Source of the DNA: a virus
Strand: one strand, 5' to 3'
IMG/VR virus record: IMGVR_UViG_3300042353_000076
Location: 3,267-67,266 of that record
DNA: 64,000 bases
Each line of letters opens with the position of its first letter. Position 1 is the stretch's first letter. Under the pieces are notes generated by a model, which worked only from the letters and a program-made list of their open reading frames with translations, did no database searches and was not told the origin of the DNA. Made by a program: the position numbers and the translations under genes. This document shows, piece after piece, positions 23,601 to 36,344 of the stretch.

Positions 23601-25914
23601 AGCTGATGCCGATAGAGTTCGTTACATTGAAGCAGTCAACGGCAATAAATCTTTGTATACCCAACGGTGGCAAGACTACCTAAAGGGTAGAGAGCTTATT
23701 GAAGTTGAGATGAATGAGATGTTAGACTATAAGACAAAGAAGGGTGCATACAGTGAGTACCAGAGAAACACTGGTACTAACATTGATAGACCTCTGATGG
23801 TAGTTGATCAGGCAGCGGAGACAGCTTTGGCTGTTCCCGGTTTGATTCCTGAAGAAGTACTATCCGATCCTGTTATTCTAAAACACATTAGAACCAATCT
23901 AGCTGAGTCTTATAATTACTTTATGAATGGTAGAGTATTTGAACTTATCTTCCAGAGAGAACTTGATAGACTCATGGGTTCTCGCAATGTAAGAATCACT
24001 GATGTGTTTCCTCATGTAGCTAGTGAAGCCAGAAGAGATATAGAGGCTATAGCTAAAGCTGAAAACTGGACACCCGGACAGCTAGCTGCAAGACTCCAAG
24101 ATGTTACGGAAGGTATTCAAAGACTTAAGGATGAGTATGCATCTAATGCAGATACTCTTCCTATGCTTCCTTATCAGGATCAAGCGGCTGCAAGAAGCCT
24201 ATTGGCATTGATGAAGATTAAGGTTGCTTCCGGTTACTACCTTGGGGCAATGACTGAGCTTATAATGGAAACTCTAAAGTCAAATCCTTTACATCTTCCG
24301 GGTAATCTCATTAGTACTTTAAGGTTTGTGGTCGGAGACTTTCGAGTCTCAAAGAACTCTCTTATGAATAACTCTGAGCTTGGGGATATGATCTTCGGTC
24401 TAGAAAATATTAAGTATGAGTTTAGTTCTCGATTCTTGGGTGAAGCAAATCAAGGAGCATTTGAATTAGATTCTACAATTGGATCTAAGATCAAGGGTAA
24501 ATTTATTAATCCCCGCCCTGCAACGGGTCTTGTGGATAGAGGCGTTCGTGTTCTAGAGTCTGGAGCTAGAGTTGCTGAGACTATTGGTTCGCTACAAGCG
24601 ATCACCAATATAACCAGATCAATGGCTAAGGTCCGACTACAGCGTATGATCTATGGTCATATTAAGAAAGGTAGAATTCAAAAGCTACTAGTAGCCCTAG
24701 AAGATCCTGCTATGATGAAACTCATGCAGGACTATATGGCAGCTGCAGAAACAAGCGCAGGAGCAGAGAATCAGCTCCGTAAACAATTCTATGCATTGGC
24801 TAGAAAGACTGGCTTCGGGTTCAACCCAAAGGAAGCTCTAGTCTTTATGAAGTATGGTTTAAACTCTGTCGAGAAGATTAAACATCTTGAATATTTAATT
24901 AAGAAGGTTGACAAGAAGGGTGAAGGTCGGGTTAATCTACACAACATGGTTGATGTATATTGGCATGCTACGACTCATCCTGTTGCTGGGATTAAACCAG
25001 AAGTATTAGAGCAAGTTATTAGTTCTTACGGACTTGCCCTAGAAGATCTGATTGTAAAGACATCTACACCTGAACCTATTGGTTTAGGTCGAGTTACTAC
25101 GATTGATTCCAAGACACCACTTGGTAAACTCTGGTATGCTCTTAGCTCCTACATCCGTGGGTTCCAAGATAATGTTATACTGGATTATGGTAGCCGCGAT
25201 ACACTTCGGTACTTAGCCGCTAACATAGTTCTCTATGGAACATTGGATGCCACTATCGGTCTACTCCGTGAGTGGCTAGCCGGAAGAGATGGCGAGGATA
25301 TCCTTGAAGAGTTCTCAGATAACCCACATGCCTTTGCTGTCCGTGTAGCTAAGTCTGCCCCTATCATGGGAATGTGGTCTGGTGCTCTAGAGGCTGGTTT
25401 AAGTGGTCTGAGCTACATGTCTGGTGGAACTTGGAAGTACTACGGTAGTCCAATGCAGTCCATTGGTATGGGAGCTGCTACCGGGGCTGTAGAGAGTATT
25501 GGTAGAGGCGTTAGTGAAGTTGTAGAAGGAGTCACGGGTGATGAAGAAGTTGATTACATGAAGGTTGCTAAGGGAGTTGGTGATATCACATCAGTTAACT
25601 CTTTGTTAAACCGAAGTCCAATTGCTGTGGCTGCTAGATCCCTAGAAGTCTCAGGAGCTTTGGAAGAAAAGGGAACATTGCAAACCTACATGAACATGAT
25701 TCACAAGAACCCACATCCTTATGCAAAGAGCCAAGGAAGAAAACAAAGTTCTTCTCAGTCGTTACCACCGATACCTAAGGTTGCCCCCCGCAACTTTGAG
25801 CTGGAAGCCCAAGCCCTTAAGAAGGCAAGAGCAGCCCAAGCCGGAGTCCGTTATGAAGACATGTCAAAGGGTGTATCAGGTTCCCTAGGGGATCTCTTAG
25901 ATAATGCCCAATAG
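14692..25914 (+). CDS. Giant internal virion/ejection protein (gp16-position), polyvalent: zincin metallopeptidase motif plus two ART-PolyVal-like ADP-ribosyltransferase domains
   Basis: 3740 aa. Hydrophobic G/A-rich segments near aa 335-480 and the C-terminus, as in gp16. VLHEIGH...NAEEVF at nt 17497-17697. Two copies of TPEFK.(F/Y)F..SK.VDENG.P...YHGT...G.FG.G.Y.T.NP..A...A...P+++SI.NP...DG...WIA....Q+KS..N.GTF...DP.I.RD at 18793-19365 and 19423-20181. Confidence 0.8.
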   Translation: MINYTNNFPIVPETPETPRLQPQYYTTGNQFLMAYQGAPNYVDVARMHEPGFWGPQPNTQKDTYNNLYALTQAESISTGGAQGYAQKIAQYIGMGPNEFQDYSFGAFQRGILMGQKDDPLAPAEFGASQLTPEVQDNLRSILSKLLPIAKQEPQDPENPTPTQKRVNAMMYQLAYAKASEVTKTDLGFSMVDAFRSQAEVYGKILNAYTYGAAGALYDGYNAAYNPTKNTKIARGIDDILKIRNRVDLTFDPAIWWSNLDPTVKQGFIENGISSNTIRTALNEDEANFRIGEIIFKSDTQKRIEAYAPGYFDSGRLIADNLVGGILNSSDTVPFIALEVAATVATGGFNLVATAYAAPTVAVASTGFAVFRAARNVASTIAKLPLGLSPTYAKNLGMLGTYTLTGSIFGVGAALQEATRQEKQIAYSNALLFADPEMQKDYDLSSIGWAGGEGFAIGFLGFGLAPGVMGSTAGAFLNKLRGVNVAPLGESVVRMTGDKRFTYEGTRLGEALGFYKGKLSRKDVAVDLPLHEKIITEAELEGVKPSAQQLSNETQTAVNRADARAAVTPDAARATPDVPMTRRLDNETRQAYAERTGANGTLSNIIEFVTEISRKNSAGDAVKERASLTGTGDTFGDMGTTDRLRILYASEEHLNTTRLKEKEAGKLTPAREKAYAIMESQRRSMIKQYTKSLSKPERKALSDSLGGVKKPVKTITEHVADARSTVISSAAKNDAAEKAAVSLLGTAREIVANPSRKAELRADLPKEVLDILDAAITEVAITGTVSPSTVEALKADISGVARKPSNRLTNSIKEALKIKKLNPKRMALINALKDDINKFSSLVSGNQVNAEKFFQFTNDLVENEIINEIDQAILLASVVHLNFDSKAFAVDFKIEPILDVDGNIEYTTIGAYSAANKTIVMNSLWIGNDSERRAITVLHEIGHAYFQSSATADIYVDNLKMYNSLTRNYGPSLLNLDVANMSDPLLSANFLSVYHLQNAEEVFVQSFSKILFTEAQLAVSQMAPIEVSSFRSIINSMEQGIILAASMFDTSDHYTVVNGLINRLTEMDTAASKAISVPDLSRAYAAAVNAQTVSSDIAPNVFNTFVKDWMIKNLPEHSPEVVKRAMLTSGEYNLIMRGERDPSLIVALTILKSNGRQAIDMKGNPTVYMKDLVDVYSTYKQTQFGSMLIKTAFLLTTPDYAQLVGMSKKDRIKFMQRRLFSMGAESFESVQGGVETILAATYEDRGLAQMQATNYLDPLNKPSRYSHTFWGTKATSLIELLDKSVEGTAKNSLSETDRLALLEQVRNDPYLNQPLMHTLKDYYKNNGFADIAHLVTLVHHKHYIDTLKAEGVFDTEGLNRSYIEEVTSTPEFKKFFGDSKAVDENGKPIIVYHGTTTLVDFNKFKLGGGMFGSGVYTTTNPSTANNFALVNPRQPNAPTGARLFPLFISIVNPLILDYSKEPKRILQEVYKLLKEKNLTEEYNALKEATRLGNMADGETVQTIFNTSLAKAVAALGYDGYQIKMAEGNTYWIALKVEQVKSVYNEGTFNKLDPDIRRDIDAGVDNNQTRKAFLERVKETPEFKIYFDGSKVVDENGNPLIMYHGTRSGGYDQFKLPENPEFGLFGPGYYFTANPSIASEYAVKPGTRPSKGASIYPVYLSIKNPIDMDAPFDRNLWSSVVSNYRISPELREKLTDGLKYNGDLLAQIERQIETTRKEFLGLPLGSEGMITAKGLVLEPTSYTKQFDTNESAFRQLEDNIISYVEDGDDYVSAIVMDLFKQSPIDGITHMGGGRVKADSVRHRVWIAFEQPQIKSTSNRGTFSVTDPIITRDMDLPIWSSKDIAIDSIAAFLSNKDITHLSIPTLLKNIDAALIQKISDTPNMTPEKLLTGIHTMITSGSIVLNETSGKWELPSTKKPKKPSKAAKAAKTPRAKKAVAAKEAKVKEAATLAAISDGSEELTVDNLDDVVIRLFTEGKLTDEELGPLYENRPYLIKRIEAGKLPSVKHLLRLAGTIKRRDFLSEQRKGKAGKKDQQGETAEGILKEGSVPSKNAGVFVPTTDKEFSAIMFDRALTWNNLTNNTLLTPEEVTLAKALLLVESDKELASKSAELLGKKVEDRTIGNRRNALYNKMVAIGKAIEYDPKARLVETQDSLLAHVKQMDQVVTKAVEKPESVKAIVKQAEAAPTPKQVSNPIDAGSRLLEKQALAARSKKTDASPVMTPVTKVEEGTLFRATSEVTGNVPEAVLRPEKQVDAIIENSDVSTKEAVSFVPKKPLTMTMTAAEFMANEVKMASTMKVADRMGVDALVFSDGVVMPIQADASVVVKGVTETKVKAGVPSVTKIKVKKGVPIKTVTAAVEPPKVEVVEPTTTPAPAVAPVEDLPSTPVPLAASEGAPVRVTKTGGIAPPAPRKTVSDVVKTTETERIERVVNDDKDLLRDNGMDQGFLKLFLKNYWTRMKNIDKAVDTYSPTLLSLWTKFVTINKAIVEANRAVFGDEGISKFWIAVDKLRAENVQKLATVPGFKSLSERQLMVLAAKEVGDAYMPPILLDELNIVKSSEDATAFTLVAKESKTPRKKVSDATKAESPVPVPPEPTPAPAPKAGEEVPVTPETIPLEPIKETPRGDMGRIINTATKDSEQSTSVLLRQGSLIGAIFGGSERASRNWWRAMNSWMANATQAASQTGKTIRNLQKNIRFLSRLFEDNRAQSGHLVGAGKEAFRTARQCKSDEARMITRIARQQLLLNKKLKDSGLALDKVRAVGVLSYTKLSEGTIIAPADLVALGLSPDLAKSIAVEANSLLQITRQTNQTILGLQNETGLFNSNAADGTPFDPMKYAPVQLNHESFSAMSPTDRALFVAGLVKARRTRKLKSPILDINTLIVLGWLDVAPSKEARGTALFAGKRDFRPGESTQSFSPETLAGLKISEHPITVGEKGVLATLANGSDSQNYFVLTNDKSGVITLYRMPKVISELADADRVRYIEAVNGNKSLYTQRWQDYLKGRELIEVEMNEMLDYKTKKGAYSEYQRNTGTNIDRPLMVVDQAAETALAVPGLIPEEVLSDPVILKHIRTNLAESYNYFMNGRVFELIFQRELDRLMGSRNVRITDVFPHVASEARRDIEAIAKAENWTPGQLAARLQDVTEGIQRLKDEYASNADTLPMLPYQDQAAARSLLALMKIKVASGYYLGAMTELIMETLKSNPLHLPGNLISTLRFVVGDFRVSKNSLMNNSELGDMIFGLENIKYEFSSRFLGEANQGAFELDSTIGSKIKGKFINPRPATGLVDRGVRVLESGARVAETIGSLQAITNITRSMAKVRLQRMIYGHIKKGRIQKLLVALEDPAMMKLMQDYMAAAETSAGAENQLRKQFYALARKTGFGFNPKEALVFMKYGLNSVEKIKHLEYLIKKVDKKGEGRVNLHNMVDVYWHATTHPVAGIKPEVLEQVISSYGLALEDLIVKTSTPEPIGLGRVTTIDSKTPLGKLWYALSSYIRGFQDNVILDYGSRDTLRYLAANIVLYGTLDATIGLLREWLAGRDGEDILEEFSDNPHAFAVRVAKSAPIMGMWSGALEAGLSGLSYMSGGTWKYYGSPMQSIGMGAATGAVESIGRGVSEVVEGVTGDEEVDYMKVAKGVGDITSVNSLLNRSPIAVAARSLEVSGALEEKGTLQTYMNMIHKNPHPYAKSQGRKQSSSQSLPPIPKVAPRNFELEAQALKKARAAQAGVRYEDMSKGVSGSLGDLLDNAQ

Positions 25915-28845: not shown

Positions 28846-29015
28846 CACTATGGAATGTACTGATTATCTATGATGATAGGGATGAAATGTTACAACAAGA
28901 GTTCATGAGTCTATGGGCTGTGGATCGGTTAGATGTAATCATCTCTATCGGTTACATCTATAGTAAGCGTAAGGATCATCTCCGTTCTGTTATCTTTGAC
29001 CAACTGGAGGATTAA
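28842..29015 (+). CDS. Early hypothetical protein
   Basis: 57-aa open frame with GGAGG RBS, coupled at both ends; not in the ORF track. Confidence 0.55.
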   Translation: MTLWNVLIIYDDRDEMLQQEFMSLWAVDRLDVIISIGYIYSKRKDHLRSVIFDQLED

Positions 29016-29221
29016 TGCAAGAGTTAGCCCCGTATAATGTTGTTGTTATATATAACCCATCTATTAAAGGAGAGGGTGAGATCTTTATTGAATGCTCACA
29101 CTTTGTATTGGCTGGGTCTACTAAACAAGTAAGTAAGGGATTGCGTTATCTATATAGAGATGTTGAGATCATCGCCATTATCTTTGGAGACAAGTATGAA
29201 AACCTTGAAGCAGAAGTCTAA
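29015..29221 (+). CDS. Early hypothetical protein
   Basis: 68 aa; GGAGG RBS and TAATG coupling. Confidence 0.6.
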   Translation: MQELAPYNVVVIYNPSIKGEGEIFIECSHFVLAGSTKQVSKGLRYLYRDVEIIAIIFGDKYENLEAEV

Positions 29222-29384
29222 GACTAAACAGACTACTAGCCCATGCTATGTAGTAAAGATGAATGGACAAGTGCGTCTTATCCTTGACAGTAAGCATGAC
29301 GCTAAGCGTTATGCTATTACTCTCGGACTGACATATGCAGGTGCTGACATTGAACTATACTCTTACCCAATGGTGAACCCATGA
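29196..29384 (+). CDS. Early hypothetical protein
   Basis: ATG 29196 after GGAG; 62 aa. Confidence 0.5.
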   Translation: MKTLKQKSKTKQTTSPCYVVKMNGQVRLILDSKHDAKRYAITLGLTYAGADIELYSYPMVNP

Positions 29385-29527
29385 AAATCTATATGGTTGT
29401 AGAGATCCCAGAGATTGATGATGTTGACTCACAAGATGCAGACAATGCATTGATGATGATTACTGATGCAATGCAACACTTTCCTTATCCATATTACATT
29501 GATGAGGTAACTGCAGATGAAGTATGA
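29381..29527 (+). CDS. Small acidic early protein
   Basis: 48 aa MKIYMVVEIPEIDDVDSQDADNALMMITDAMQHFPYPYYIDEVTADEV; ATGA coupling; not in the ORF track. Confidence 0.5.
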   Translation: MKIYMVVEIPEIDDVDSQDADNALMMITDAMQHFPYPYYIDEVTADEV

Positions 29528-29717
29528 GATTGTCAAGGCGTTGTATCAAGGAGAGATGTGGTATAATGTCACAGTAGATGGAGTATATGTCAATGGATTC
29601 AGAGACAAGACAGATGCCCTATCCTATGGATGGTGGTATACAAATTATGGTAAAGCCGTTGCCGATGGGGACGAAGATCATATGGGTAGGGTGCGTACTA
29701 ACCTACAACAATCCTAG
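29517..29717 (+). CDS. Early hypothetical protein
   Basis: 66 aa; GAGGT RBS. Confidence 0.55.
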   Translation: MKYEIVKALYQGEMWYNVTVDGVYVNGFRDKTDALSYGWWYTNYGKAVADGDEDHMGRVRTNLQQS

Positions 29718-29771
29718 ATGGTATCCGGTGTGCGCCGGAGAAACACAAAGCCTTGCACTATCGGCAACCTG

Positions 29772-29793
29772 CCGAATAGTTGGGGCTACTGAT
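29772..29793 (+). promoter_or_regulatory. Putative phage RNAP promoter, copy 2
   Basis: CCGAATAGTTGGGGCTACTGAT in an intergenic gap. Confidence 0.7.
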
Positions 29794-29817
29794 AAGTAAC
29801 TTTAGGGAGAACTTGAA

Positions 29818-30081
29818 ATGAGAATTAATAATCACACTATGAATATCTATACTGAAGACTATGGTAACATTGATGTAGACTTTAGCATTGAGTGGACTAT
29901 TGAGGATGGGGAATGGGAGATGGGTACTGTAGATATCAAAGACTTCTACCCTACTATAGTTGACTATGATACAATCAAAGGGTTGTTAGATAATGTTATT
30001 GAAGAGTTAAACTTTAATCCATTGACACCTTACCGTGGTGAAGAGGATACCTATGACACCTTACCATCAGGAGCAGACTAA
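29818..30081 (+). CDS. Acidic hypothetical protein
   Basis: 87 aa, D/E-rich; GGGAG RBS; first gene after promoter copy 2. Confidence 0.6.
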   Translation: MRINNHTMNIYTEDYGNIDVDFSIEWTIEDGEWEMGTVDIKDFYPTIVDYDTIKGLLDNVIEELNFNPLTPYRGEEDTYDTLPSGAD

Positions 30082-30293
30082 TGTCACCGTCTACTACAAT
30101 CATCTCTGATAACATTAAGTTTATTAAAGAAGTGGCTGCTGTCTTTCATTATTGGATCGAAGATCCTAAGAAGAGAGATGATGCTCAGCGTATGCTGAAT
30201 GACTTTGATACTATGACAGTCGATAAGTTTTATCTTACTGAAGATGAAGAATTGTTTATTAACCAACTTGACCACTTACTGGAGACACAATGA
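30081..30293 (+). CDS. Hypothetical protein
   Basis: 70 aa; AGGAG RBS and TAATG coupling. Confidence 0.6.
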   Translation: MSPSTTIISDNIKFIKEVAAVFHYWIEDPKKRDDAQRMLNDFDTMTVDKFYLTEDEELFINQLDHLLETQ

Positions 30294-30505
30294 ATAACGA
30301 ACTAGATACTGCTGTTAAGACTCTCGTTGACCTGATCACTAAGGACTTGACGGGTAAGATTAATCTAATCTGTGAGCATGCTGTTACCGCATACCTTGAG
30401 AGTAGTGATTGTAAGTACCTTATCAAGGATGCTATTAGTGAGAAGGTTACTGAGTTGGTTGATGATGCTGTCTCTGATATCTCCCTTTCAATTAGTATCG
30501 ACTAA
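30290..30505 (+). CDS. Hypothetical protein
   Basis: 71 aa; GGAG RBS and ATGA coupling. Confidence 0.6.
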   Translation: MNNELDTAVKTLVDLITKDLTGKINLICEHAVTAYLESSDCKYLIKDAISEKVTELVDDAVSDISLSISID

Positions 30506-30717
30506 TGGATATTATCACCGCATATATGATTGTCCTTCTTACTGAGAAGGGCATTGATCCGGGTGAAATCCCCGCTGATAAGTTTGATGCATGGACTAAG
30601 AACATGCATGCTAATTTTAAATCATATGTTAGTGGCATGATCCCTGAAGATTGGTATATCCCACCAACTTATGAATGGACTGAAGAACTACCTGATATTA
30701 ATGGAGAAGAAGACTAA
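30505..30717 (+). CDS. Hypothetical protein
   Basis: 70 aa; TAATG coupling. Confidence 0.55.
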   Translation: MDIITAYMIVLLTEKGIDPGEIPADKFDAWTKNMHANFKSYVSGMIPEDWYIPPTYEWTEELPDINGEED

Positions 30718-30935
30718 TGGATATCCCGCTACTGATTCTAATGTTTGGATTTATTGCACATGTTGTTATAAATATTGTTAGTGACATCTTAAGTCGTAGG
30801 CATTATGATACTCGACTACATGAAGTGAATGAACGCTGTGATGGTTTGATTAAGTGGTGTCAACTATTAGACAACCAACTTAGTGGTATGCGTATGGATA
30901 ACAGAACTGTCCCTCTCAAGAAGAAGAAGAAGTAA
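30717..30935 (+). CDS. Hypothetical membrane-anchored protein
   Basis: 72 aa; N-terminal TM helix and poly-Lys end. Confidence 0.55.
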   Translation: MDIPLLILMFGFIAHVVINIVSDILSRRHYDTRLHEVNERCDGLIKWCQLLDNQLSGMRMDNRTVPLKKKKK

Positions 30936-30939
30936 ACAG

Positions 30940-31015
30940 AGAAGGGTGGCTGAAACGCAGTTATAGCGCACACCTTATAAGTGTGAGTATGTGGGTGCAA
31001 CTCCCGCCCCTTCTA
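30940..31015 (+). tRNA. tRNA-Ile(UAU), atypical D and T loops
   Basis: Acceptor AGAAGGG/CCCTTCT plus A73; D stem GCTG/TAGC; anticodon arm CACAC-CTTATAA-GTGTG (TAT at 30976-30978); T arm GTGGG-TGCAACT-CCCGC; no encoded CCA. Confidence 0.8.
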
Positions 31016-31028
31016 TTAAAGGAACCTT

Positions 31029-31253
31029 ATGATCTTACCCGACTTAGATGCTAATGAAACTATCTATGAGACTGCTGATCGTATGTATGATTGGCTCCGT
31101 CTTCATGGGTTTGCTGTTACTATACTTACGCCTGATGATTTAGAAGTTGAACCTAAACAGGATAAGATTAATAGAGAGACAGTAGAACTTGAGATGCAAG
31201 CGGCTGCTACTAACTACATTGAATGGCTTAAGGAAGGATACTACAATGGCTGA
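31029..31253 (+). CDS. Hypothetical protein (paralogue of the next gene)
   Basis: 74 aa; shares E.I.E....Y.W+R..G+AV...TP++ with 31246-31524. Confidence 0.6.
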   Translation: MILPDLDANETIYETADRMYDWLRLHGFAVTILTPDDLEVEPKQDKINRETVELEMQAAATNYIEWLKEGYYNG

Positions 31254-31524
31254 TGTCTTTGTGTATAATAAGGATGAAAGTATTGAAGAGAATGTATACC
31301 AAGCATACTCTTGGATTCGTAAGCAAGGGTATGCCGTTGCTATGTGGACACCTGAAGAGATGACACTAGACCCTAAGCATTACAAGGAGACTGATGGGTA
31401 TGTTACCTTTAGGGAAGACCATCTTGAAAGTGCAATGATTACTGCGGGTTATGAATATATTACTGAGATGAAGCGTGTTCTCTCTATTGATCCTAACTAT
31501 AAGGAAGATGACAATGAAGATTGA
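31246..31524 (+). CDS. Hypothetical protein (paralogue of the previous gene)
   Basis: ATG 31246 after AAGGA; 92 aa. Confidence 0.6.
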   Translation: MADVFVYNKDESIEENVYQAYSWIRKQGYAVAMWTPEEMTLDPKHYKETDGYVTFREDHLESAMITAGYEYITEMKRVLSIDPNYKEDDNED

Positions 31525-31939
31525 TATTGCTAAGCAATGGGTTGATGCTCTTAAGTCTGGTACTTATCAGCAAGGGCAAGGTAAACTACATGCCACAGAT
31601 ATTAATGGGACATGTATGTACTGCTGCCTTGGTGTACTGTGTGATCTGTATATGCAACAGAACCCTGATGAATTAGATGTTAAGGTTGTTACTCGTAAGT
31701 CAGATGTGAACCTTCAACACACTCAGATGTTGAGTATAGGTGATGACTCTATCACTGTCTATGATAATGATAGTCTTGTGTTACCATTGCGTGTTCGTGA
31801 ATGGGCAGGTATGCACGATGCACTTGGACGATTCACTAATGCATCACATGCACAAGACTCTTTGGCAGAACTGAATGATCATGGTATGTCATTCGCTAAA
31901 CTTGCTGATGTTATTGATGTGCATGTTGCTGAACTTTAA
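31514..31939 (+). CDS. Conserved phage hypothetical protein
   Basis: W..AL.SG.Y.QG...L...CCLGVLCDL...L..LND.G.SF...AD.I pattern, seen in many phages; function unknown. Confidence 0.7.
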   Translation: MKIDIAKQWVDALKSGTYQQGQGKLHATDINGTCMYCCLGVLCDLYMQQNPDELDVKVVTRKSDVNLQHTQMLSIGDDSITVYDNDSLVLPLRVREWAGMHDALGRFTNASHAQDSLAELNDHGMSFAKLADVIDVHVAEL

Positions 31940-31945
31940 ACCACT

Positions 31946-32019
31946 GTCCTTGTATCTCAATTGGATAGAGGCATCGGTTTCTACCCGATAGGTTACTGGT
32001 TCGAGTCCAGTCAGGGACG
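31946..32019 (+). tRNA. tRNA-Arg(UCU)
   Basis: GTCCTTG/CAGGGAC acceptor; D loop with GG; ATCGG-TTTCTAC-CCGAT anticodon arm; ACTGG-TTCGAGT-CCAGT T arm; no CCA. Confidence 0.92.
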
Positions 32020-32023
32020 CTTT

Positions 32024-32074
32024 GGTAGGTGCATATACAATAGGCTTTGACCCTATCATGCTATGTATCCTACC
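32024..32074 (+). ncRNA. Armless tRNA-Gln(UUG)-like hairpin (degenerate tRNA or anticodon-stem-loop mimic)
   Basis: GGTAGG/CCTACC and TGCATA/TATGTA stems topped by ATAGG-CTTTGAC-CCTAT, a canonical 5-bp stem and 7-nt loop with TTG. No D or T arm; fills the gap between two tRNAs. Confidence 0.6.
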
Positions 32075-32077
32075 TAT

Positions 32078-32150
32078 GGCACGGTAGACCAATGGCAGAG
32101 TCTACAGACTTAAAATCTGTGTAGTGTGGGTTCGACTCCCACCCGTGCTA
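32078..32150 (+). tRNA. tRNA-Leu(UAA) with short variable loop
   Basis: GGCACGG/CCGTGCT acceptor plus A73; ACAGA-CTTAAAA-TCTGT anticodon arm; 5-nt variable loop; GTGGG-TTCGACT-CCCAC T arm. Confidence 0.88.
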
Positions 32151-32155
32151 CTATA

Positions 32156-32227
32156 GGGATTGTAGCTCAATGGTAGAGCAGTCGGCTTTTAACCGATTGG
32201 TTAAGAGTTCAAGTCTCTTCTGTCCCA
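32156..32227 (+). tRNA. tRNA-Lys(UUU)
   Basis: GGGATTG/CTGTCCC acceptor (one T-T mismatch); GCTC-AATGGTA-GAGC D arm; GTCGG-CTTTTAA-CCGAT anticodon arm; AAGAG-TTCAAGT-CTCTT T arm. Confidence 0.92.
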
Positions 32228-32245
32228 CTAAGAAAGGATACTATC

Positions 32246-32515
32246 ATGGTGTTTGATACTGAGTTAGAGAAACTGATTAACGCAATTGTTATTATCGAAT
32301 GGGAAGATATCTCTGGGTATGCTGACTCATGGATGGATAAGAAAGACATCTATGATATGCACCCTCATCAATGTATAAGTATTGCTAAACTCTATGAGTG
32401 TAATCAAGAGTACATTACTGTTGCTGCTACTTGGGATGATGTTGGTTCTATTGTATCGGATGTTAATTGCATACCGATTGGCTGTATAAAATCTATCAAG
32501 AAGGTAAAGATATGA
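32246..32515 (+). CDS. Conserved phage hypothetical protein
   Basis: 89 aa; IEWEDI...W...C.S...L...IP...I..I pattern common in phage small proteins. Confidence 0.65.
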   Translation: MVFDTELEKLINAIVIIEWEDISGYADSWMDKKDIYDMHPHQCISIAKLYECNQEYITVAATWDDVGSIVSDVNCIPIGCIKSIKKVKI

Positions 32516-32814
32516 ATGAGACATTCACTAAGACATTAACAATTGACCAAGATAATTATACTGTGCTACAGTTTATGCTTATTGAACCATCTCGTTTCAG
32601 TGAGCCTGAAGCGGTGTATGATGTGGTATTCTCCATTCTCAATGTGAGAAACGGCGAAGTTGCTTCAATGAACCAGCGTATTAATATTAAGGATATTGAA
32701 TCACTATGGACTATGCAATGGGATTGCAAGCGTACTTATGAAGCAAGACAAAAGCAAATGGCTGAAGAAAGAACTCAAGCCAAAGAAGAAGTTACCTCCG
32801 TACAAGCGGACTAA
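32512..32814 (+). CDS. Hypothetical protein
   Basis: ATG 32512 coupled (ATGA) to the previous gene; 100 aa. Confidence 0.55.
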   Translation: MNETFTKTLTIDQDNYTVLQFMLIEPSRFSEPEAVYDVVFSILNVRNGEVASMNQRINIKDIESLWTMQWDCKRTYEARQKQMAEERTQAKEEVTSVQAD

Positions 32815-32868
32815 GATACGGCATCTTGATACACAAGACCGTGATGATGATAACACTAAAGGAAACTA

Positions 32869-33849
32869 ATGGCACATAACATTACAGATACTGATGGTGC
32901 AGTCTATAGTAAGACTGCCGCATGGCATGGACTTGGCTTGGTTATTCAGGAAGATATGTCACCTACTGAGGCAATGAAGATTGCTGGTCTTGATTGGACT
33001 GTTAGTAAGGTCGGTCCAGTAACCGCAGGTGATGCTACCTCTGATGACTACAATGCTATTGTTCGTAGTGACAACAATGCTATCTTGTCTATTCAATCAC
33101 CTGACTATCAGATCGTACAGAATAGTGAAGTCTTTGAGATGGCATACAATCTTGGTGCTGACATTAAGATTGAGTCTGCTCTAAGTATGGGTGGTGGTAA
33201 GCGTTTGGTTGTCTTGTGTAAGACAGGTGAGATTGATGGTGTCAATGGACATGATCCTATCGCACAGTATATGGCACTCATTAACAGTCATGATGGTACT
33301 CTTGCTGAGCAAGCACTACCTACTACTGTTCGTATCGTATGTCAGAATACATTGAGCATGGCTATGGCAGGTGGTAAGAAGTCCTTCCGTATTGTACACT
33401 CAGGTGACATGAAGAAGAAGCGTGAGGCTATGGCATCAGCCCTTAAGTTCTACGCTATGTCCGGTAAACTCTTTGAAGATAAGGTACAAACTCTTGTTCG
33501 TAAGGAACTTACTAAGTCAGAGATCCAGAAGTTCTGGTTGGATGTATGGGGTATGGTTGAAGAGCCAGTTGTGGCTAATCCAACATTACCCGATGACTAT
33601 GAGAACTATCTCCGCGCTACTGTAACCATCCGCAAGTGGGCTGATACCTTTGATGCTGAACGGGCTGAGTTAAATGGATGTAGTGCTAACCTTTGGCTTG
33701 CTGCTAATGCAGTAACCAAGGAACTTCAGCACCGTATCCCTGCTCGTGGTCGTAAGCCATCGTTTGAATCGTCTGCCTTTAGTAATCTTCTTGGTAAGAA
33801 TCAAGAGACTACTATGGATGTAATGAAGTTTGCACTTACCCTCGTATAA
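32869..33849 (+). CDS. DUF932 family phage/plasmid protein
   Basis: AWHGLG, AGLDWTV, Y..VQN.E.F, ESA..+.GGK, NSHDGT and T.VRIVCQNTL motifs. Confidence 0.9.
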   Translation: MAHNITDTDGAVYSKTAAWHGLGLVIQEDMSPTEAMKIAGLDWTVSKVGPVTAGDATSDDYNAIVRSDNNAILSIQSPDYQIVQNSEVFEMAYNLGADIKIESALSMGGGKRLVVLCKTGEIDGVNGHDPIAQYMALINSHDGTLAEQALPTTVRIVCQNTLSMAMAGGKKSFRIVHSGDMKKKREAMASALKFYAMSGKLFEDKVQTLVRKELTKSEIQKFWLDVWGMVEEPVVANPTLPDDYENYLRATVTIRKWADTFDAERAELNGCSANLWLAANAVTKELQHRIPARGRKPSFESSAFSNLLGKNQETTMDVMKFALTLV

Positions 33850-33872
33850 GAATCTAATAACCAAGGAGATAC

Positions 33873-36344
33873 ATGTCTAAACTGTGGGATTCATTATCTA
33901 AAGAAGAACAAGATAAAAGAACTGCACTACAAGTTATCTCTGAGGAAGATATGCTTTGTCTGTCGGAACATAAATACTGGGATGCATACAATGCTAACCC
34001 TGATGAGGGTATCCCTGAGCAAACATTGATTGACGCATGTGTCATCCATCTTACACCCTTCTACCAGCAATGGATAGATACGGTATCACAGAATAGGAAG
34101 ACACCTGAATGGGCATTCCCTTTGTTTGCTGTTGGTGCTGCTAAGATGGCAGACATTACTATTAGATCACTGATTCTCGAATGGTTTAACTCTGCTTTCT
34201 GGGAGCGTAAGTATGAGAACGATCTGTTCCCATTGCCTACTGCTCAACACATAGCACATGTTATATCTGAGATGGTAGTGGAGATTGTAGCCTATCAACA
34301 GGCTAAGAAACAATTCCGTGAGGATTGGCTCAAGCAATCCCACTACCAGAAGAAGTGGACTACTAAGCGATGCAAGGCGTTTGCCTATAAGATGGGTACT
34401 CTTAATAAGAAAACCTTCTCAAGGAAACAACGCGAAGACTTTGGTCATCACATGCTACGCATAGCGGAGATGTCTGAGGTCATTAACTTAAAGAACATTC
34501 GTAAGCATACAGGCAAGCGATGGAGTGAGCGTGTAGTAGTTACCTTTACTGATGACATATTGAGTGAACTTAATAAGCGTCATCAGGATGTGATTGCTAC
34601 CGCTGCCCTGCTGTATCGACCAATGATTATCCCACCAATTAAACATACTCTAAGTAGTAGTGGTGGGAATCTACTACCCCATATCCGTAAGCCTGTAGTA
34701 CAGAAGTTTAAGGATGTGATGTGGGATGAGAAGGTACACCAGAATGGTAGCCTTCCATCAGAGATAGTAGTCACTGGTCTTAATGCTATGATGCATACCG
34801 AATGGTCTATCAATGAGCGGGTGCTAGAGATAATGACTGCACTCTTTAAGAACAACACACGAGATGCTAACCTTCCCGTGTATGACTTCTCAGCCTTTGA
34901 CTTTGCTGATCCCTATCCTAAGGATGGGACTAAAGAAGAGAAGGCTAAGTGGTGTCAGCTCAAGGAAGAAACATATAGCAATTGGTATAAGGAAGAACGA
35001 TCACGAGGTCGTATGCTTGTCCGGATTAAACTGGCGCAATCATTAATCCCTCTGAAGTTCTTCTACCATATTTATACCTGTGACTTCCGTGGTCGTGCTA
35101 ATGCAGCATGTGATCTACTTAGTCCACAGTCAAGTGACTTTGATCGTGGTCTTATTCAGTTTGCTCAGCCAAGGAAACAAACATCCATTGGTTTGTATTG
35201 GTTAAAGATTCATGTCGCTAATCTATTCGATCAGGACAAGACAACCTTTGATCAACGAGTTAAGTGGGTCGATGATAACATGGACATGCTTAAGAGAATC
35301 AATGATGATCCCTATGCTACCCGCTCTGAGTGGGTATCACATAAGAAGAAAAAGAATCCAAGCTTCCAGCGTATCGCTGCTGTCTTTGATCTGTGTCGTA
35401 CTGATGGGTTAACTCAAGTGCCTGTGCAAATGGATGGTTCATGTAACGGTGTTCAGCATTGGGCTGCACTTATGCGTGACCCTTATCTTGCCAAGAAGGT
35501 TAACCTCATACACACTAACAAGCCCGAAGATCTGTATCAGTATGTTGCTGATGTGATGACATCTAATATGGTGTCAGTACAGGATGCAGATACTAACAAT
35601 GGAAAATGGGCGAAAAAATTTATAGAGTATTGGGAGGGTGACATTGACCGCTCTGTTTGTAAGAGAGCAGTAATGACTGATCCCTATGGTGTTACCTTCT
35701 ATGGTATTCGCAGGTACTGTAAGACTGAGGGTCACCTTGATTGGGTTGGTAAGGATGAGATTGCTGGTGCTGTTGTCGAGTTAGCTACCTTCATTGATGC
35801 TGCCCTCAAGGGTACATTGGTCGAGGCTAACAAGGGCAAGGCATGGCTCAAGGTGGTGGCTGATATGGCTAGTGAACTAGGTAAGAATGTTGAGTGGACT
35901 ACCCCGTGTGGGTTTAAAGTAGTACATCAATACTATGAGATACTAACTAGACGATCAGTCGCTAAGCTATTCGATATGAAAGAGTTACACTTTGGCTCAC
36001 CCGATAAGGAAACAATTGATGGTGGCTCAGTTAATCTAGCCATCTCCCCTAACTATATTCACTCACTTGATGCAAGTCATATGTGGTGTACCATATATAG
36101 AATGGTTGGTGCTGGTATTGAACAGTTCAGTATGATCCATGATTCATATGGTTGTCCTGCACCTGATGTTAATCTAATGCGTATGTTTACTAATGAAGAG
36201 TTCTGTGCTATGCATACGACCAATCTATTAGATGACATGCGGATCGAAGTATCAAAAGCATTGAAGATTACAGTACCTGATGCACCACCTACTGGTTCAT
36301 TAAACATTAAGGATGTTTTAGATGCGGAGTATTTCTTCCAATGA
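33873..36344 (+). CDS. Single-subunit DNA-directed RNA polymerase (T7 gp1-like)
   Basis: 823 aa. PMIIPP, DFRGR, motif A DGSCNGVQH, motif B RSVCKRAVMTDPYG, SPNYIHSLDASH and motif C IHDS. Confidence 0.97.
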   Translation: MSKLWDSLSKEEQDKRTALQVISEEDMLCLSEHKYWDAYNANPDEGIPEQTLIDACVIHLTPFYQQWIDTVSQNRKTPEWAFPLFAVGAAKMADITIRSLILEWFNSAFWERKYENDLFPLPTAQHIAHVISEMVVEIVAYQQAKKQFREDWLKQSHYQKKWTTKRCKAFAYKMGTLNKKTFSRKQREDFGHHMLRIAEMSEVINLKNIRKHTGKRWSERVVVTFTDDILSELNKRHQDVIATAALLYRPMIIPPIKHTLSSSGGNLLPHIRKPVVQKFKDVMWDEKVHQNGSLPSEIVVTGLNAMMHTEWSINERVLEIMTALFKNNTRDANLPVYDFSAFDFADPYPKDGTKEEKAKWCQLKEETYSNWYKEERSRGRMLVRIKLAQSLIPLKFFYHIYTCDFRGRANAACDLLSPQSSDFDRGLIQFAQPRKQTSIGLYWLKIHVANLFDQDKTTFDQRVKWVDDNMDMLKRINDDPYATRSEWVSHKKKKNPSFQRIAAVFDLCRTDGLTQVPVQMDGSCNGVQHWAALMRDPYLAKKVNLIHTNKPEDLYQYVADVMTSNMVSVQDADTNNGKWAKKFIEYWEGDIDRSVCKRAVMTDPYGVTFYGIRRYCKTEGHLDWVGKDEIAGAVVELATFIDAALKGTLVEANKGKAWLKVVADMASELGKNVEWTTPCGFKVVHQYYEILTRRSVAKLFDMKELHFGSPDKETIDGGSVNLAISPNYIHSLDASHMWCTIYRMVGAGIEQFSMIHDSYGCPAPDVNLMRMFTNEEFCAMHTTNLLDDMRIEVSKALKITVPDAPPTGSLNIKDVLDAEYFFQ

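What the first reader, a model, noticed from the sequence alone, without database searches (positions are those of the whole stretch)
32024..32074. Armless tRNA-Gln(UUG) mimic between tRNA-Arg and tRNA-Leu
Seen: the spacer between two tRNAs folds into one rod: GGTAGG/CCTACC, TGCATA/TATGTA, an internal loop, then a perfect anticodon arm ATAGG-CTTTGAC-CCTAT (C32 U33 UUG A37 C38, as in bacterial tRNA-Gln). The D- and T-arm positions pair with each other instead of forming arms, which looks selected rather than decayed. Processing of the flanking tRNAs would release it as a ~55-nt RNA. Established: armless tRNAs are known from some animal mitochondria; anticodon nucleases recognise mainly the anticodon stem-loop. 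Inference: a decoy for anticodon nucleases or tRNA-modifying enzymes, or a minimal tRNA. Standard tRNA scanners would probably miss it.
Basis: partly seen in the sequence, partly recalled or inferred. Interest (0 to 1): 0.7.

Follow-up and report, generated by a model that had tools for sequence, protein, structure and literature searches.

The report
Armless tRNA-Gln-like hairpin RNA in phage
A lake-water phage and its relatives keep, between two of their tRNA genes, a small conserved hairpin whose tip copies the anticodon arm of a glutamine tRNA but lacks the rest of a tRNA, so it looks like a tRNA-derived small RNA of unknown, possibly decoy, function.

Summary
It lies between tRNA-Arg(UCU) and a short tRNA-Leu(UAA) in a 67-kb T7-like lake phage.

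The rod is under selection:
- 17 distinct variants from related viral and metagenome contigs keep the same two helices: 92.7% of cells paired against 29-47% in slid controls, and 12 of 15 pairs carry double changes. RNAalifold finds the same helices.
- The unpaired parts are the best conserved.
- It is single-copy in the window.
- It always lies between tRNA-Arg (or its remnant) and tRNA-Leu.

The apex plus junction nucleotides (ACA, 5 bp, CUUUGAC, 5 bp, CA) match real tRNA-Gln(UUG) anticodon arms almost base for base. These phages have no real tRNA-Gln.

It is not a canonical tRNA, promoter, terminator or Rfam family.

My best reading, at confidence 0.4, is a tRNA-derived armless small RNA that is freed when the flanking tRNAs are processed and that mimics the tRNA-Gln anticodon arm. 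Release, stability and any decoy function are untested. 5 of 17 variants have non-canonical loops.

The parts
30940..31015 (+). tRNA-Ile(UAU), first tRNA of the phage's set
   Evidence: ARAGORN; Rfam tRNA 53.2 bits
31946..32020 (+). tRNA-Arg(UCU), 5' neighbour. No encoded CCA. Its 3' processing would define the 5' end of the hairpin RNA (inferred).
   Evidence: sequence
32021..32023 (+). 5' single-stranded tail UUU
   Evidence: fold
32024..32035 (+). 5' strand of the 12-bp outer helix (GGTAGG + TGCATA)
   Evidence: The proximal six pairs align with the covarying outer helix of the relatives. G32029-C32069 becomes G.U in L006/L007.
32036..32039 (+). 5' connector UACA. The ACA is invariant in all 17 variants and is typical of the nucleotides that precede the anticodon stem of real tRNA-Gln(UUG).
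32040..32044 (+). 5' strand of the 5-bp anticodon-like stem (ATAGG)
   Evidence: It covaries as ATAGG, GATGG, GCGGG and GTAGG with matching 3' strands.
32045..32051 (+). 7-nt loop CUUUGAC (C32 U33 U34 U35 G36 A37 C38 in tRNA numbering), i.e. a tRNA-Gln(UUG) anticodon loop
32052..32056 (+). 3' strand of the anticodon-like stem (CCTAT)
32057..32061 (+). 3' connector CAUGC (CAAGG in most relatives). It has the length of a 5-nt tRNA variable loop.
32062..32074 (+). 3' strand of the outer helix (TATGTA, bulged U32068, CCTACC)
32075..32077 (+). 3' tail UAU. RNase P cleavage at G32078 would leave it as the 3' end (inferred).
   Evidence: sequence; established tRNA processing
32078..32151 (+). tRNA-Leu(UAA), 74 nt, without a long variable arm; the 3' neighbour. 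Its anticodon loop is complementary to the hairpin loop.
32156..32228 (+). tRNA-Lys(UUU), last tRNA of the cluster, 4 nt after tRNA-Leu

Best explanation
The 57-nt 'spacer' is a gene in its own right: a single-copy, tRNA-derived, armless tRNA-like small RNA.

Anatomy (shown):
- a 12-bp outer helix;
- two short conserved connectors (UACA and CAUGC in the window; CAAGG in most relatives);
- an apical arm that matches, almost base for base, the anticodon arm of a tRNA-Gln(UUG) with its junction nucleotides (ACA, 5 bp, CUUUGAC, 5 bp, CA).

Biogenesis (inferred): it is transcribed with the tRNA cluster. The cuts that mature tRNA-Arg at its 3' end and tRNA-Leu at its 5' end (RNase P) free it as a hairpin of about 57 nt with 3-nt tails, which should resist exonucleases.

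Action (inferred, not shown): it has no D arm, no T arm and no acceptor end, so it cannot decode. Its conserved single-stranded nucleotides are the working surface. It most likely imitates the tRNA-Gln(UUG) anticodon arm and occupies a protein that reads that arm. That protein could be a host anticodon-loop nuclease of an anti-phage system, or an enzyme that modifies U34 or A37. The effect would be to spare or divert the real tRNA.
For: - **Structure under selection.** 92.7% of cells are paired against 28.6-46.7% in slid controls, and 12 of 15 pairs have double changes. 0 of 500 shuffles reach the observed value on four of five measures. RNAalifold finds the same helices, with 11 of 13 pairs compensatory. 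11 of 11 variants folded give the same outer-helix and apical-arm rod, with an extra 3-bp hairpin in L026.
- **Sequence selection on the unpaired parts.** Mean pairwise identity is 0.945 for the 5' connector, 0.829 for the loop and 0.847 for the 3' connector. The stems score 0.51-0.72 and the flanks 0.42-0.69.
- **Conservation among close relatives.** 1 of 57 spacer columns varies, against 71 of 465 in the upstream ORF and 0 of 222 in the three tRNAs. The one change keeps the pair, G-C to G.U.
- **tRNA-Gln identity of the apex.** Loops CUUUGAC and CUUUGAA occur in 7 and 3 of 20 distinct real phage tRNA-Gln(UUG). A scan of one genome per prokaryote species found 93 stretches, 25 of which have ACA, a paired stem and CUUUGAC. 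These include ACA-GCGGG-CUUUGAC-CCCGC, identical to the L024-type arm, and ACA-GUAGG-CUUUGAC-CCUAU-CA, 1 nt from the window.
- **Its own gene, not a generic signal.** The covariance model finds one copy in the window (64.1 bits; next best 13.1). In 92 other loci it finds only the syntenic copies (28 matches).
- **A structured spacer is not needed for processing.** Leu-Lys are 4 nt apart here, and Ile-Arg are 4 nt apart in the 82% group.
- **A Gln slot is plausible.** tRNA-Gln(UUG) directly precedes the same kind of tRNA-Leu in unrelated phage arrays such as L160 and L096. CAA is used 363 times (57% of Gln codons), as often as AAA (363) and more than UUA (351), AGA (248) and AUA (171), which do have phage tRNAs. 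The nearly complete records of element-bearing phages hold only the four cluster tRNAs.
- **RNA-library cover.** A contig from an RNA library spans 31871-32159, that is Arg, hairpin and Leu.
Against: - No read-level evidence exists for a discrete 57-nt RNA. The RNA-library data are contigs, and DNA carry-over is possible.
- 5 of 17 distinct variants have loops that a tRNA mimic should not tolerate: CCUUGAA (C33), CUUUGUC twice (U37), CCUUUAA (C33, U36) and an 8-nt ACUUUCAA.
- At pair 31-39, 8 of 17 cells do not form a standard pair. In seven variants this is an A31.C39 mismatch that opens the loop to 9 nt in the MFE fold.
- The G.U evidence for the + strand is modest. Overall 92.7% are paired on + and 90.2% on -. 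The outer helix favours + (18 G.U against 4 A.C), while the inner helix has 8 A.C.
- No partner was identified: no tRNA-related enzyme among the 27 ORFs scanned, and the host is unknown.
- I know of no bacterial defence nuclease shown to be specific for tRNA-Gln(UUG).
- The element is confined to one subclade. Relatives with 45-68% RNA polymerase identity lack it in the DNA fetched.
Confidence: 0.4

Rival explanations
1. A cis-acting structural spacer. On this reading the hairpin descends from a tRNA-Gln and is kept only because a stable rod between tRNA-Arg and tRNA-Leu helps the polycistronic precursor fold or be cut correctly. It would have no role once released.
For: - It usually ends 3-6 nt before tRNA-Leu (distance from the inner stem to Leu is 18-21 nt in 13 of 17 variants).
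- It stays next to tRNA-Leu when an ORF is inserted after tRNA-Arg, as in L024 and L214.
- Both helices are maintained by compensatory change.
Against: - Other tRNA junctions of the same cluster need only 2-4 nt.
- The unpaired nucleotides, not the stems, are the most conserved part, which a purely structural role does not explain.
- In L026, L195 and L198 the hairpin sits 42-68 nt from tRNA-Leu.
Confidence: 0.22
2. An anticodon-complementary partner of the neighbouring tRNA-Leu. The loop UUUGA is the exact complement of U33-A37 of tRNA-Leu(CAA), and pairs with one G.U to tRNA-Leu(UAA). The hairpin would then kiss the tRNA-Leu anticodon loop, like a presented UUG codon. This could mask the loop from a nuclease or time its maturation.
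For: - Loop-loop complementarity of 5 contiguous pairs (G.U allowed) is seen in 13 of 17 variants.
- L195, whose loop lost UUG, regains 5 Watson-Crick pairs to its tRNA-Leu(UAA) in a shifted register.
- The hairpin is always linked to tRNA-Leu.
- Gln(UUG)-Leu(YAA) adjacency recurs in unrelated phage arrays.
Against: - Any tRNA-Gln(UUG)-like loop is complementary to a Leu(YAA) loop by the structure of the genetic code, so the match is not independent evidence.
- The switch from UAA to CAA is not accompanied by a compensating change: G36 is kept in both.
- L026/L199 and L198 pair less well, at 3-4 pairs.
Confidence: 0.1
3. A decaying tRNA-Gln(UUG) pseudogene without present function, conserved only because the relatives are recent.
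For: - Non-canonical loops occur in 5 of 17 variants and A31.C39 mismatches in seven.
- The same clade shows other tRNA reduction: a D-armless tRNA-Arg in L026.
- The folds of L195, L198 and L026 are weak, with z of -1.9, -2.0 and -0.9.
Against: - 12 of 15 pairs carry compensatory double changes, which neutral decay does not produce.
- The stems have turned over completely between subclades while ACA and the loop stayed the same.
- The outer helix has been built up to 12 bp rather than eroded.
- 1 of 57 columns varies where the flanking coding DNA varies at 15%.
Confidence: 0.08
4. A working minimal tRNA-Gln that is charged and decodes CAA, like the armless mitochondrial tRNAs of some nematodes.
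For: - The secondary structure has the same plan: acceptor-like helix, two connectors and an anticodon arm (PMC12221289 passages).
- The phage uses CAA 363 times and has no other tRNA-Gln.
Against: - The outer helix is 8-13 bp, not 7.
- The 3' tail is UAU or AUAU, with no discriminator-CCA geometry.
- E. coli EF-Tu showed no interaction with an armless aminoacyl-tRNA, and armless tRNAs need co-evolved EF-Tu and CCA-adding enzyme (PMC12221289 passages).
- No such factor was found among the 27 ORFs scanned.
- Some variants carry C33, U37 or 8-9-nt loops.
Confidence: 0.03
5. A generic signal rather than an RNA gene: a sigma-70 promoter (the loop holds TTGAC), an intrinsic terminator, an RNase III site of the T7 kind, or a DNA hairpin.
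For: - The phage is T7-like, and T7 early RNA is cut at irregular hairpins with an internal loop (recalled).
- The loop contains TTGACC.
- Pairing on the minus strand is nearly as good, 90.2%.
Against: - The consensus scan calls no promoter or terminator at the element.
- No U-tract follows it.
- The spacing from TTGACC to any TATA-like hexamer varies between subclades and would start transcription inside tRNA-Leu (reading).
- It is single-copy.
- The upper stem is only 5 bp, and RNase III does not read loop sequence, yet the loop is conserved.
- The outer helix has 18 G.U pairs that would be C.A on the other strand.
Confidence: 0.05

Closest known systems
Armless, hairpin-like mitochondrial tRNAs of the nematode Romanomermis culicivorax (PMC12221289; passages seen)
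   Same: They share the secondary-structure plan. One terminal helix is joined by two short single-stranded connectors to a 5-bp, 7-nt anticodon arm, with no D arm and no T arm.
   Different: The nematode RNAs are real, charged tRNAs that rely on co-evolved EF-Tu and CCA-adding enzyme. Here the terminal helix is 8-13 bp, there is no acceptor-end geometry, the setting is a bacteriophage, and decoding is unlikely.
RNAC and RNAD, the two small RNAs transcribed from the phage T4 tRNA region, whose roles are unknown (PMC3014915; passage seen)
   Same: Both are small non-tRNA RNAs encoded inside a phage tRNA cluster, presumably freed by the tRNA-processing enzymes, with unknown function.
   Different: No sequence or structure relationship was tested, because no T4 sequence was fetched. 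From recall, the T4 RNAs are longer and are not described as anticodon-arm mimics.
Phage-encoded full tRNAs that defeat tRNA-cleaving defences: the T5 tRNA against PARIS (PMC11464382) and phage tRNAs against retron effectors (PMC11555353). Abstracts only, from the listings.
   Same: Both are phage tRNA-cluster products proposed to act against host attack on anticodon loops. The window's own set (Lys UUU, Arg UCU, Leu UAA, Ile UAU) fits that theme.
   Different: Those work by replacing the cleaved tRNA with a resistant, functional one. The hairpin cannot replace a tRNA and could only compete or bind.
Anticodon-arm mimics in mRNA leaders, such as the E. coli thrS operator bound by ThrRS (recalled, not looked up)
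   Same: In both, a hairpin copies a tRNA anticodon arm and is read by a protein that normally reads that tRNA.
   Different: The thrS operator is a cis regulatory site in a cellular mRNA. This element is a free-standing unit between tRNAs, with no adjacent translation start.
Canonical tRNA-Gln(UUG) genes of phages and bacteria
   Same: The central 22-25 nt (ACA, 5-bp stem ending GG, CUUUGAC or CUUUGAA, stem, CA) are identical or differ by 1 nt. In other phage arrays a tRNA-Gln(UUG) occupies the same slot upstream of tRNA-Leu.
   Different: Everything outside the anticodon domain is missing and is replaced by one long helix.

Membership tests
Canonical tRNA (Rfam RF00005) | Cloverleaf with D arm and T arm that scores above the family threshold | tested here: not met
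   No tRNA match at 32021-32077 even at E<=10. Standard ARAGORN does not call it. No T-loop motif in the sequence.
Canonical tRNA (Rfam RF00005) | 5-bp anticodon stem with a 7-nt loop, pyrimidine-32, U33 and purine-37 | tested here: met
   The window has ATAGG-CUUUGAC-CCUAU. 12 of 17 variants keep it and 5 of 17 break it.
Canonical tRNA (Rfam RF00005) | 7-bp acceptor stem followed by a discriminator base and CCA (encoded or added) | tested here: not met
   The outer helix is 12 bp in the window and 8-13 bp in relatives. The 3' tail is UAU or AUAU and abuts tRNA-Leu. CCA addition cannot be tested here.
Armless mitochondrial-type tRNA | Terminal helix, two single-stranded connectors and an anticodon arm, with no D or T arms | tested here: met
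   Folds. The connectors are 4 and 5 nt.
Armless mitochondrial-type tRNA | Aminoacylated and used in translation with adapted EF-Tu and CCA-adding enzyme | not testable with these tools
   No such factor among the 27 phage ORFs scanned. E. coli EF-Tu does not bind armless aa-tRNA (PMC12221289 passage).
tRNA-Gln(UUG) anticodon domain | Loop with U34 U35 G36 and the flanking nucleotides seen in real tRNA-Gln(UUG) | tested here: met
   CUUUGAC and CUUUGAA are 7 and 3 of 20 real phage tRNA-Gln loops. 25 cellular tRNA-Gln have ACA, stem and CUUUGAC; one is identical to the L024-type arm and one is 1 nt from the window arm.
Intrinsic terminator | GC-rich hairpin followed by a U-tract | tested here: not met
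   No call at the element. UAUGGCAC follows it.
Sigma-70 promoter | -35 and -10 hexamers at 16-18 bp spacing | tested here: not met
   No call at the element. 8 sites were found in the region against 7.9 expected.
RNase III processing hairpin (T7 type) | About two helical turns of dsRNA around an internal loop, repeated between genes, with loop sequence irrelevant | tested here: inconclusive
   The rod with an internal loop fits. The upper stem is only 5 bp, it is single-copy by covariance model, and its loop is conserved. Cleavage is not testable here.
Any described RNA family (Rfam 15) | A match to a curated covariance model | tested here: not met
   Nothing overlaps 32021-32077 at E<=10 in window 29000-35000.

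The most novel reading that the evidence does not exclude
A phage encodes the first armless tRNA-like RNA known outside animal mitochondria. It would be a stand-alone tRNA-Gln(UUG) anticodon arm on a 12-bp handle, cut out of the tRNA operon by RNase P and the 3' tRNA nuclease. It would work as a decoy that soaks up a host anticodon-loop nuclease or an anticodon-modifying enzyme. Alternatively it caps the complementary anticodon of tRNA-Leu. That would be a new RNA-based counter-defence, alongside the known strategy of replacing cleaved tRNAs.
Probability: 0.25. Interest if true: 0.85.

Novelty: new variant of a known kind. Interest (0 to 1): 0.64.

Why it matters
tRNAs are now known to be frequent targets of bacterial anti-phage systems, and phage tRNA clusters are seen as replacements for cleaved host tRNAs. 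This hairpin is conserved, supported by covariation, and keeps only the anticodon arm of tRNA-Gln. It therefore suggests a second strategy, mimicry or titration, which can be tested directly with a 57-nt RNA.

It also shows that tRNA scanners miss selected tRNA-derived genes inside phage tRNA arrays. And it gives a natural example of how far a tRNA can be reduced outside mitochondria.

If it proves to be only a processing spacer, it still documents an unusual fate for a tRNA gene, rebuilt into a rod while keeping its anticodon arm.

Five literature searches found no description of an armless tRNA-like RNA or an anticodon-arm decoy in a phage. The library searched does not hold most subscription journals.

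Tried and rejected
- **Named relatives.** A megablast of 31000-33000 against named phages gave no match. A distant blastn found only generic tRNA similarity. The phage RNA polymerase has at most 29% identity (best full-length match 28%) to any named phage, so there is no named relative and no host.
- **Other copies.** A covariance-model search of the window found no second copy. A search of 92 loci found no member beyond those used to build the model. The tRNA region of a complete 68%-group genome has none.
- **Promoter and terminator scan.** Nothing at the element.
- **ARAGORN mitochondrial modes.** These gave only a poor overlapping cloverleaf, which I rejected as a tRNA.
- **RNA evidence.** Four metatranscriptome runs were laid, all as contigs. 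One 290-nt contig of X19 bridges 31871-32159. A contig of X20 ends at 32019, the 3' end of tRNA-Arg, but only in that one study. No starts, ends or levels can be read, and DNA carry-over is possible. This is therefore no evidence for or against a discrete RNA.
- **Other arrays.** I surveyed 45 distinct inter-tRNA spacers of 35-130 nt in all fetched loci for similar anticodon-like rods. 9 qualified. 5 are this element, 3 are an uncalled cloverleaf tRNA, and 1 looks like a decayed tRNA-Tyr. No second family of this kind was found.
- **Host clue.** The scan of cellular genomes spreads the matching tRNA-Gln arms over many phyla, so no host can be named.
- **Partner genes.** 27 window ORFs were scanned against PHROGs. 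They show T7-like replication and structural genes and no tRNA-related enzyme. The many small early ORFs were not all scanned.
- **Supplements.** Supplementary files of papers were not consulted.
Full report
**What is there**

- GGTAGG 32024-32029 pairs with CCTACC 32069-32074.
- TGCATA 32030-32035 pairs with TATGTA 32062-32067, with one G.U pair and a bulged U32068.
- The connectors are TACA 32036-32039 and CATGC 32057-32061.
- ATAGG 32040-32044 pairs with CCTAT 32052-32056 around the loop CTTTGAC 32045-32051.

ARAGORN and Rfam place tRNA-Arg(UCU) at 31946-32020, a 74-nt tRNA-Leu(UAA) at 32078-32151 and tRNA-Lys(UUU) at 32156-32228. tRNA-Ile(UAU) lies at 30940-31015. The 57-nt spacer folds into the rod at -18.8 kcal/mol (z -3.07; 1 of 200 shuffles folds as well). 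Nothing in Rfam matches it at E<=10. Standard ARAGORN does not call it. The mitochondrial mode forces a poor cloverleaf that overlaps both neighbours.

**Context**

The window is 64 kb of a 67,266-bp viral record estimated to be 99% complete. All large ORFs are on the + strand. PHROGs matches show a T7-like phage:
- single-subunit RNA polymerase at 33873-36344;
- primase-helicase, DNA polymerase, a gp2.5-like SSB and an exonuclease;
- portal (head-tail adaptor family), scaffold, major head protein, tail protein and large terminase.

The best named phage hit to the RNA polymerase is at most 29% identical, 28% for the best full-length match. DNA searches of named phages found nothing close. Public runs that hold the stretch are lake-water metagenomes. 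The tRNA cluster sits at the end of a block of small ORFs just upstream of the polymerase gene, where T7 has its early region. No tRNA-related enzyme was seen among the 27 ORFs scanned.

**Relatives and conservation**

The upstream 154-aa protein retrieved 8 viral contigs at 87-97% amino-acid identity. All have the same four tRNAs and a 57-nt spacer. Across these 9 sequences:
- the spacer varies at 1 of 57 columns;
- the three flanking tRNAs vary at 0 of 222;
- the upstream ORF varies at 71 of 465, and the downstream ORF at 21 of 270.

The one change turns G32029-C32069 into G.U.

The polymerase retrieved 40 loci at 45-100% identity. In the 80-82% identity groups the slot between tRNA-Arg and tRNA-Leu again holds a rod, with quite different stems but the same loop.

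To sample the clade without using the hairpin itself, I searched for its particular tRNA-Leu in viral contigs and metagenome contigs. In one search the window's own type was deliberately excluded. That tRNA-Leu type occurs with 33 distinct upstream contexts:
- 17 carry the hairpin, with tRNA-Arg(UCU) or its remnant further upstream in the loci checked;
- 15 belong to GC-rich phages with a protein gene directly upstream and no hairpin;
- 1 is cut by a contig end.

**Covariation**

The 17 distinct variants were aligned by MAFFT. For the two helices, 92.7% of cells form standard pairs against 28.6-46.7% when partners are slid by 1-3 columns. 12 of 15 pairs have changes on both sides. 0 of 500 shuffles reach the observed percentage paired, number of double-change pairs, number of double-change cells or covariation score. 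16 of 500 reach the count of further pair types.

The inner stem occurs as AUAGG/CCUAU, GAUGG/CCAUC, GCGGG/CCCGC and GUAGG/CCUAC. The outer helix has turned over completely between subclades. RNAalifold predicts the same two helices on its own, with 11 of 13 pairs compensatory. Eleven variants folded singly all give the same outer helix and apical arm (L026 with an extra 3-bp hairpin). Eight have z from -3.1 to -5.6; L195, L198 and L026 are weaker at -1.9, -2.0 and -0.9.

These variants are related sequences, so cell counts overstate the number of independent events. The several pair types at single positions still require repeated double substitutions.

**What is conserved**

The unpaired nucleotides are more conserved than the stems. 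Mean pairwise identity:

| Part | Identity |
|---|---|
| 5' connector (ACA invariant) | 0.945 |
| Loop | 0.829 |
| 3' connector | 0.847 |
| Stems | 0.51-0.72 |
| Flanks | 0.42-0.69 |

The loops are CUUUGAC in 7 variants and CUUUGAA in 5. The remaining five are CCUUGAA (1), CUUUGUC (2), CCUUUAA (1) and an 8-nt ACUUUCAA (1). So 12 of 17 keep a canonical Gln(UUG) loop and 5 do not. At pair 31-39, 8 of 17 cells do not form a standard pair; in seven variants this is an A31.C39 mismatch.

The deviating copies come from lineages where the hairpin lies 42-68 nt from tRNA-Leu (the exception is CCUUGAA in L202, which keeps the usual 21-nt spacing), or where the cluster is otherwise reduced. L026 has a D-armless tRNA-Arg and no tRNA-Lys.

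**Is the apex really a tRNA-Gln arm?**

Among 504 distinct tRNAs in the fetched loci, the 20 tRNA-Gln(UUG) have loops CUUUGAC (7), UUUUGAU (4), CUUUGAA (3) and UUUUGGU (3). ACA directly before the anticodon stem occurs in 5 of these 20.

I then scanned one genome per prokaryote species for the loop with its two closing G-C pairs and a T-loop at tRNA distance. This found 93 stretches. 25 of them have ACA, a fully paired stem and CUUUGAC. One, from a Bdellovibrionota MAG (L268), reads ACA-GCGGG-CUUUGAC-CCCGC, identical to the L024-type hairpin arm. Another, from a Polyangiaceae MAG (L291), reads ACA-GUAGG-CUUUGAC-CCUAU-CA, one nucleotide from the window. The central 22-25 nt of the element therefore match a real tRNA-Gln(UUG) anticodon domain identically or within 1 nt.

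In unrelated phage arrays a full tRNA-Gln(UUG) sits directly upstream of the same kind of tRNA-Leu, as in L160 and L096. The element-bearing phages have only the four cluster tRNAs in records that are 93-100% complete. The window uses CAA 363 times, as often as AAA and more than UUA, AGA or AUA, which do have phage tRNAs. Descent from a tRNA-Gln(UUG) gene in that slot is the simplest origin. This is an inference.

**What it is not**

- It is single-copy in the window: 64.1 bits, with the next match at 13.1 bits.
- It is absent from the other loci searched apart from the syntenic copies.
- It is absent from the tRNA region of a complete genome of the 68% group.
- No promoter-like or terminator-like site is called at it.
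- Neighbouring tRNAs in the same cluster are separated by only 2-4 nt, so a structured spacer is not required for processing.
- The outer helix has 18 G.U cells against 4 A.C, which favours the transcribed + strand. Overall the difference is small, 92.7% against 90.2%, because of the A.C cells in the inner helix.

**Expression**

Four lake metatranscriptome runs hold parts of the region, all as contigs. One 290-nt contig spans 31871-32159, that is tRNA-Arg, hairpin and tRNA-Leu together. This shows presence in an RNA library and is compatible with co-transcription. Ends and levels cannot be read, and DNA carry-over cannot be excluded.

**Mechanism**

Shown: a selected, single-copy, + strand hairpin whose apex is a tRNA-Gln(UUG) anticodon arm, embedded in a tRNA operon.

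Inferred from established tRNA processing: RNase P at G32078 and 3' maturation of tRNA-Arg (which has no encoded CCA) would release an RNA of about 57 nt with 3-nt tails.

Inferred from anatomy: with no D or T arms and no acceptor end it cannot decode. E. coli EF-Tu does not bind an armless aminoacyl-tRNA (PMC12221289, passages).

The conserved single-stranded nucleotides point to sequence-specific recognition. My preferred reading, at confidence 0.4, is an anticodon-arm mimic that occupies a protein that reads tRNA-Gln. The rivals are:
- a cis structural spacer (0.22);
- a kissing partner of the complementary tRNA-Leu anticodon (0.10);
- a functionless relic (0.08);
- a generic signal or DNA element (0.05);
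- a real minimal tRNA (0.03).

**Comparison and novelty**

The closest structural analogues are the armless mitochondrial tRNAs of Romanomermis. The closest phage analogues are T4 RNAC and RNAD, small RNAs from the tRNA region with unknown roles (PMC3014915, passage). The closest functional theme is phage tRNAs that counter tRNA-cleaving defences (PMC11464382 and PMC11555353, abstracts only).

Five full-text searches found no phage armless tRNA-like RNA or anticodon-arm decoy. I rate it a new variant of a known kind (tRNA-derived small RNA), with interest 0.64.

Noticed in passing
window 32078-32151; loci L050-L229: The phage tRNA-Leu(UAA/CAA) is only 73-76 nt long and has a 4-5-nt variable loop in place of the long variable arm of bacterial tRNA-Leu. 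The same type is widespread. How it is charged is unclear.
   Followed up: partly
L026:1259-1334 (also L179, L199): The tRNA-Arg(UCU) of this subclade lacks a D arm: 4 nt stand in place of 15 model positions. It carries a 17-nt insert in the variable region that contains a D-loop-like AAUUGGAU. It scores 31.0 bits against the Rfam tRNA threshold of 29 and is missed by ARAGORN. This is a second reduced tRNA in the same cluster, which also lacks tRNA-Lys.
   Followed up: partly
window 32078-32151 compared with L019:1383-1457: The tRNA-Leu anticodon differs between subclades. It is UAA in the window group, L026, L195 and L198, and CAA in the 82% group. The rest of the tRNA stays closely similar.
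   Followed up: partly
L019:1301-1329, L020:1555-1583, L207:924-953: In the 82% group a second hairpin (GUAAGAAA ... UUUCUUAC, with a variable loop) precedes the rod, which makes the Arg-Leu gap 82-86 nt. In L024/L025, L214/L219 and L203 an ORF of about 96 codons is inserted between tRNA-Arg and these hairpins, and its stop codon lies in a GUAAG-UUUUU-CUUAC hairpin.
   Followed up: no
L165, L061, L120 (spacer between tRNA-Ile(gat) and tRNA-Cys(gca)): A cloverleaf of 74-75 nt ends in ACCA. It has an 8-bp anticodon stem and the loop CUCAUAA (anticodon CAU). ARAGORN does not call it. It is probably an unusual tRNA-Met/Ile2-like gene.
   Followed up: no
L050, L057, L069, L082, L110, L166, L169, L171, L172, L178, L181, L184, L186, L190, L192, L194, L197 (about 110 nt upstream of the short tRNA-Leu): In other phage groups a different conserved, apparently structured region precedes the same tRNA-Leu type. 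Its shared blocks look like ..GGCUACA..UUUAAAU..GAGGCACA..AAUCAACCUC..UGUAGUCGG... A third conserved leader is shared by L062, L075, L080, L084, L095, L115 and L130. Neither was analysed.
   Followed up: no
window 14692-25914: A single ORF of 3,740 codons, with further ORFs of 1,750, 1,409 and 1,329 codons, lies in a phage that otherwise has T7-like replication and head genes. The giant ORFs were not searched.
   Followed up: no
L088, L146: ARAGORN labels 3 tRNAs with anticodon CUA as 'tRNA-Pyl'. These are amber-suppressor-type tRNAs, found in large phage tRNA arrays.
   Followed up: no
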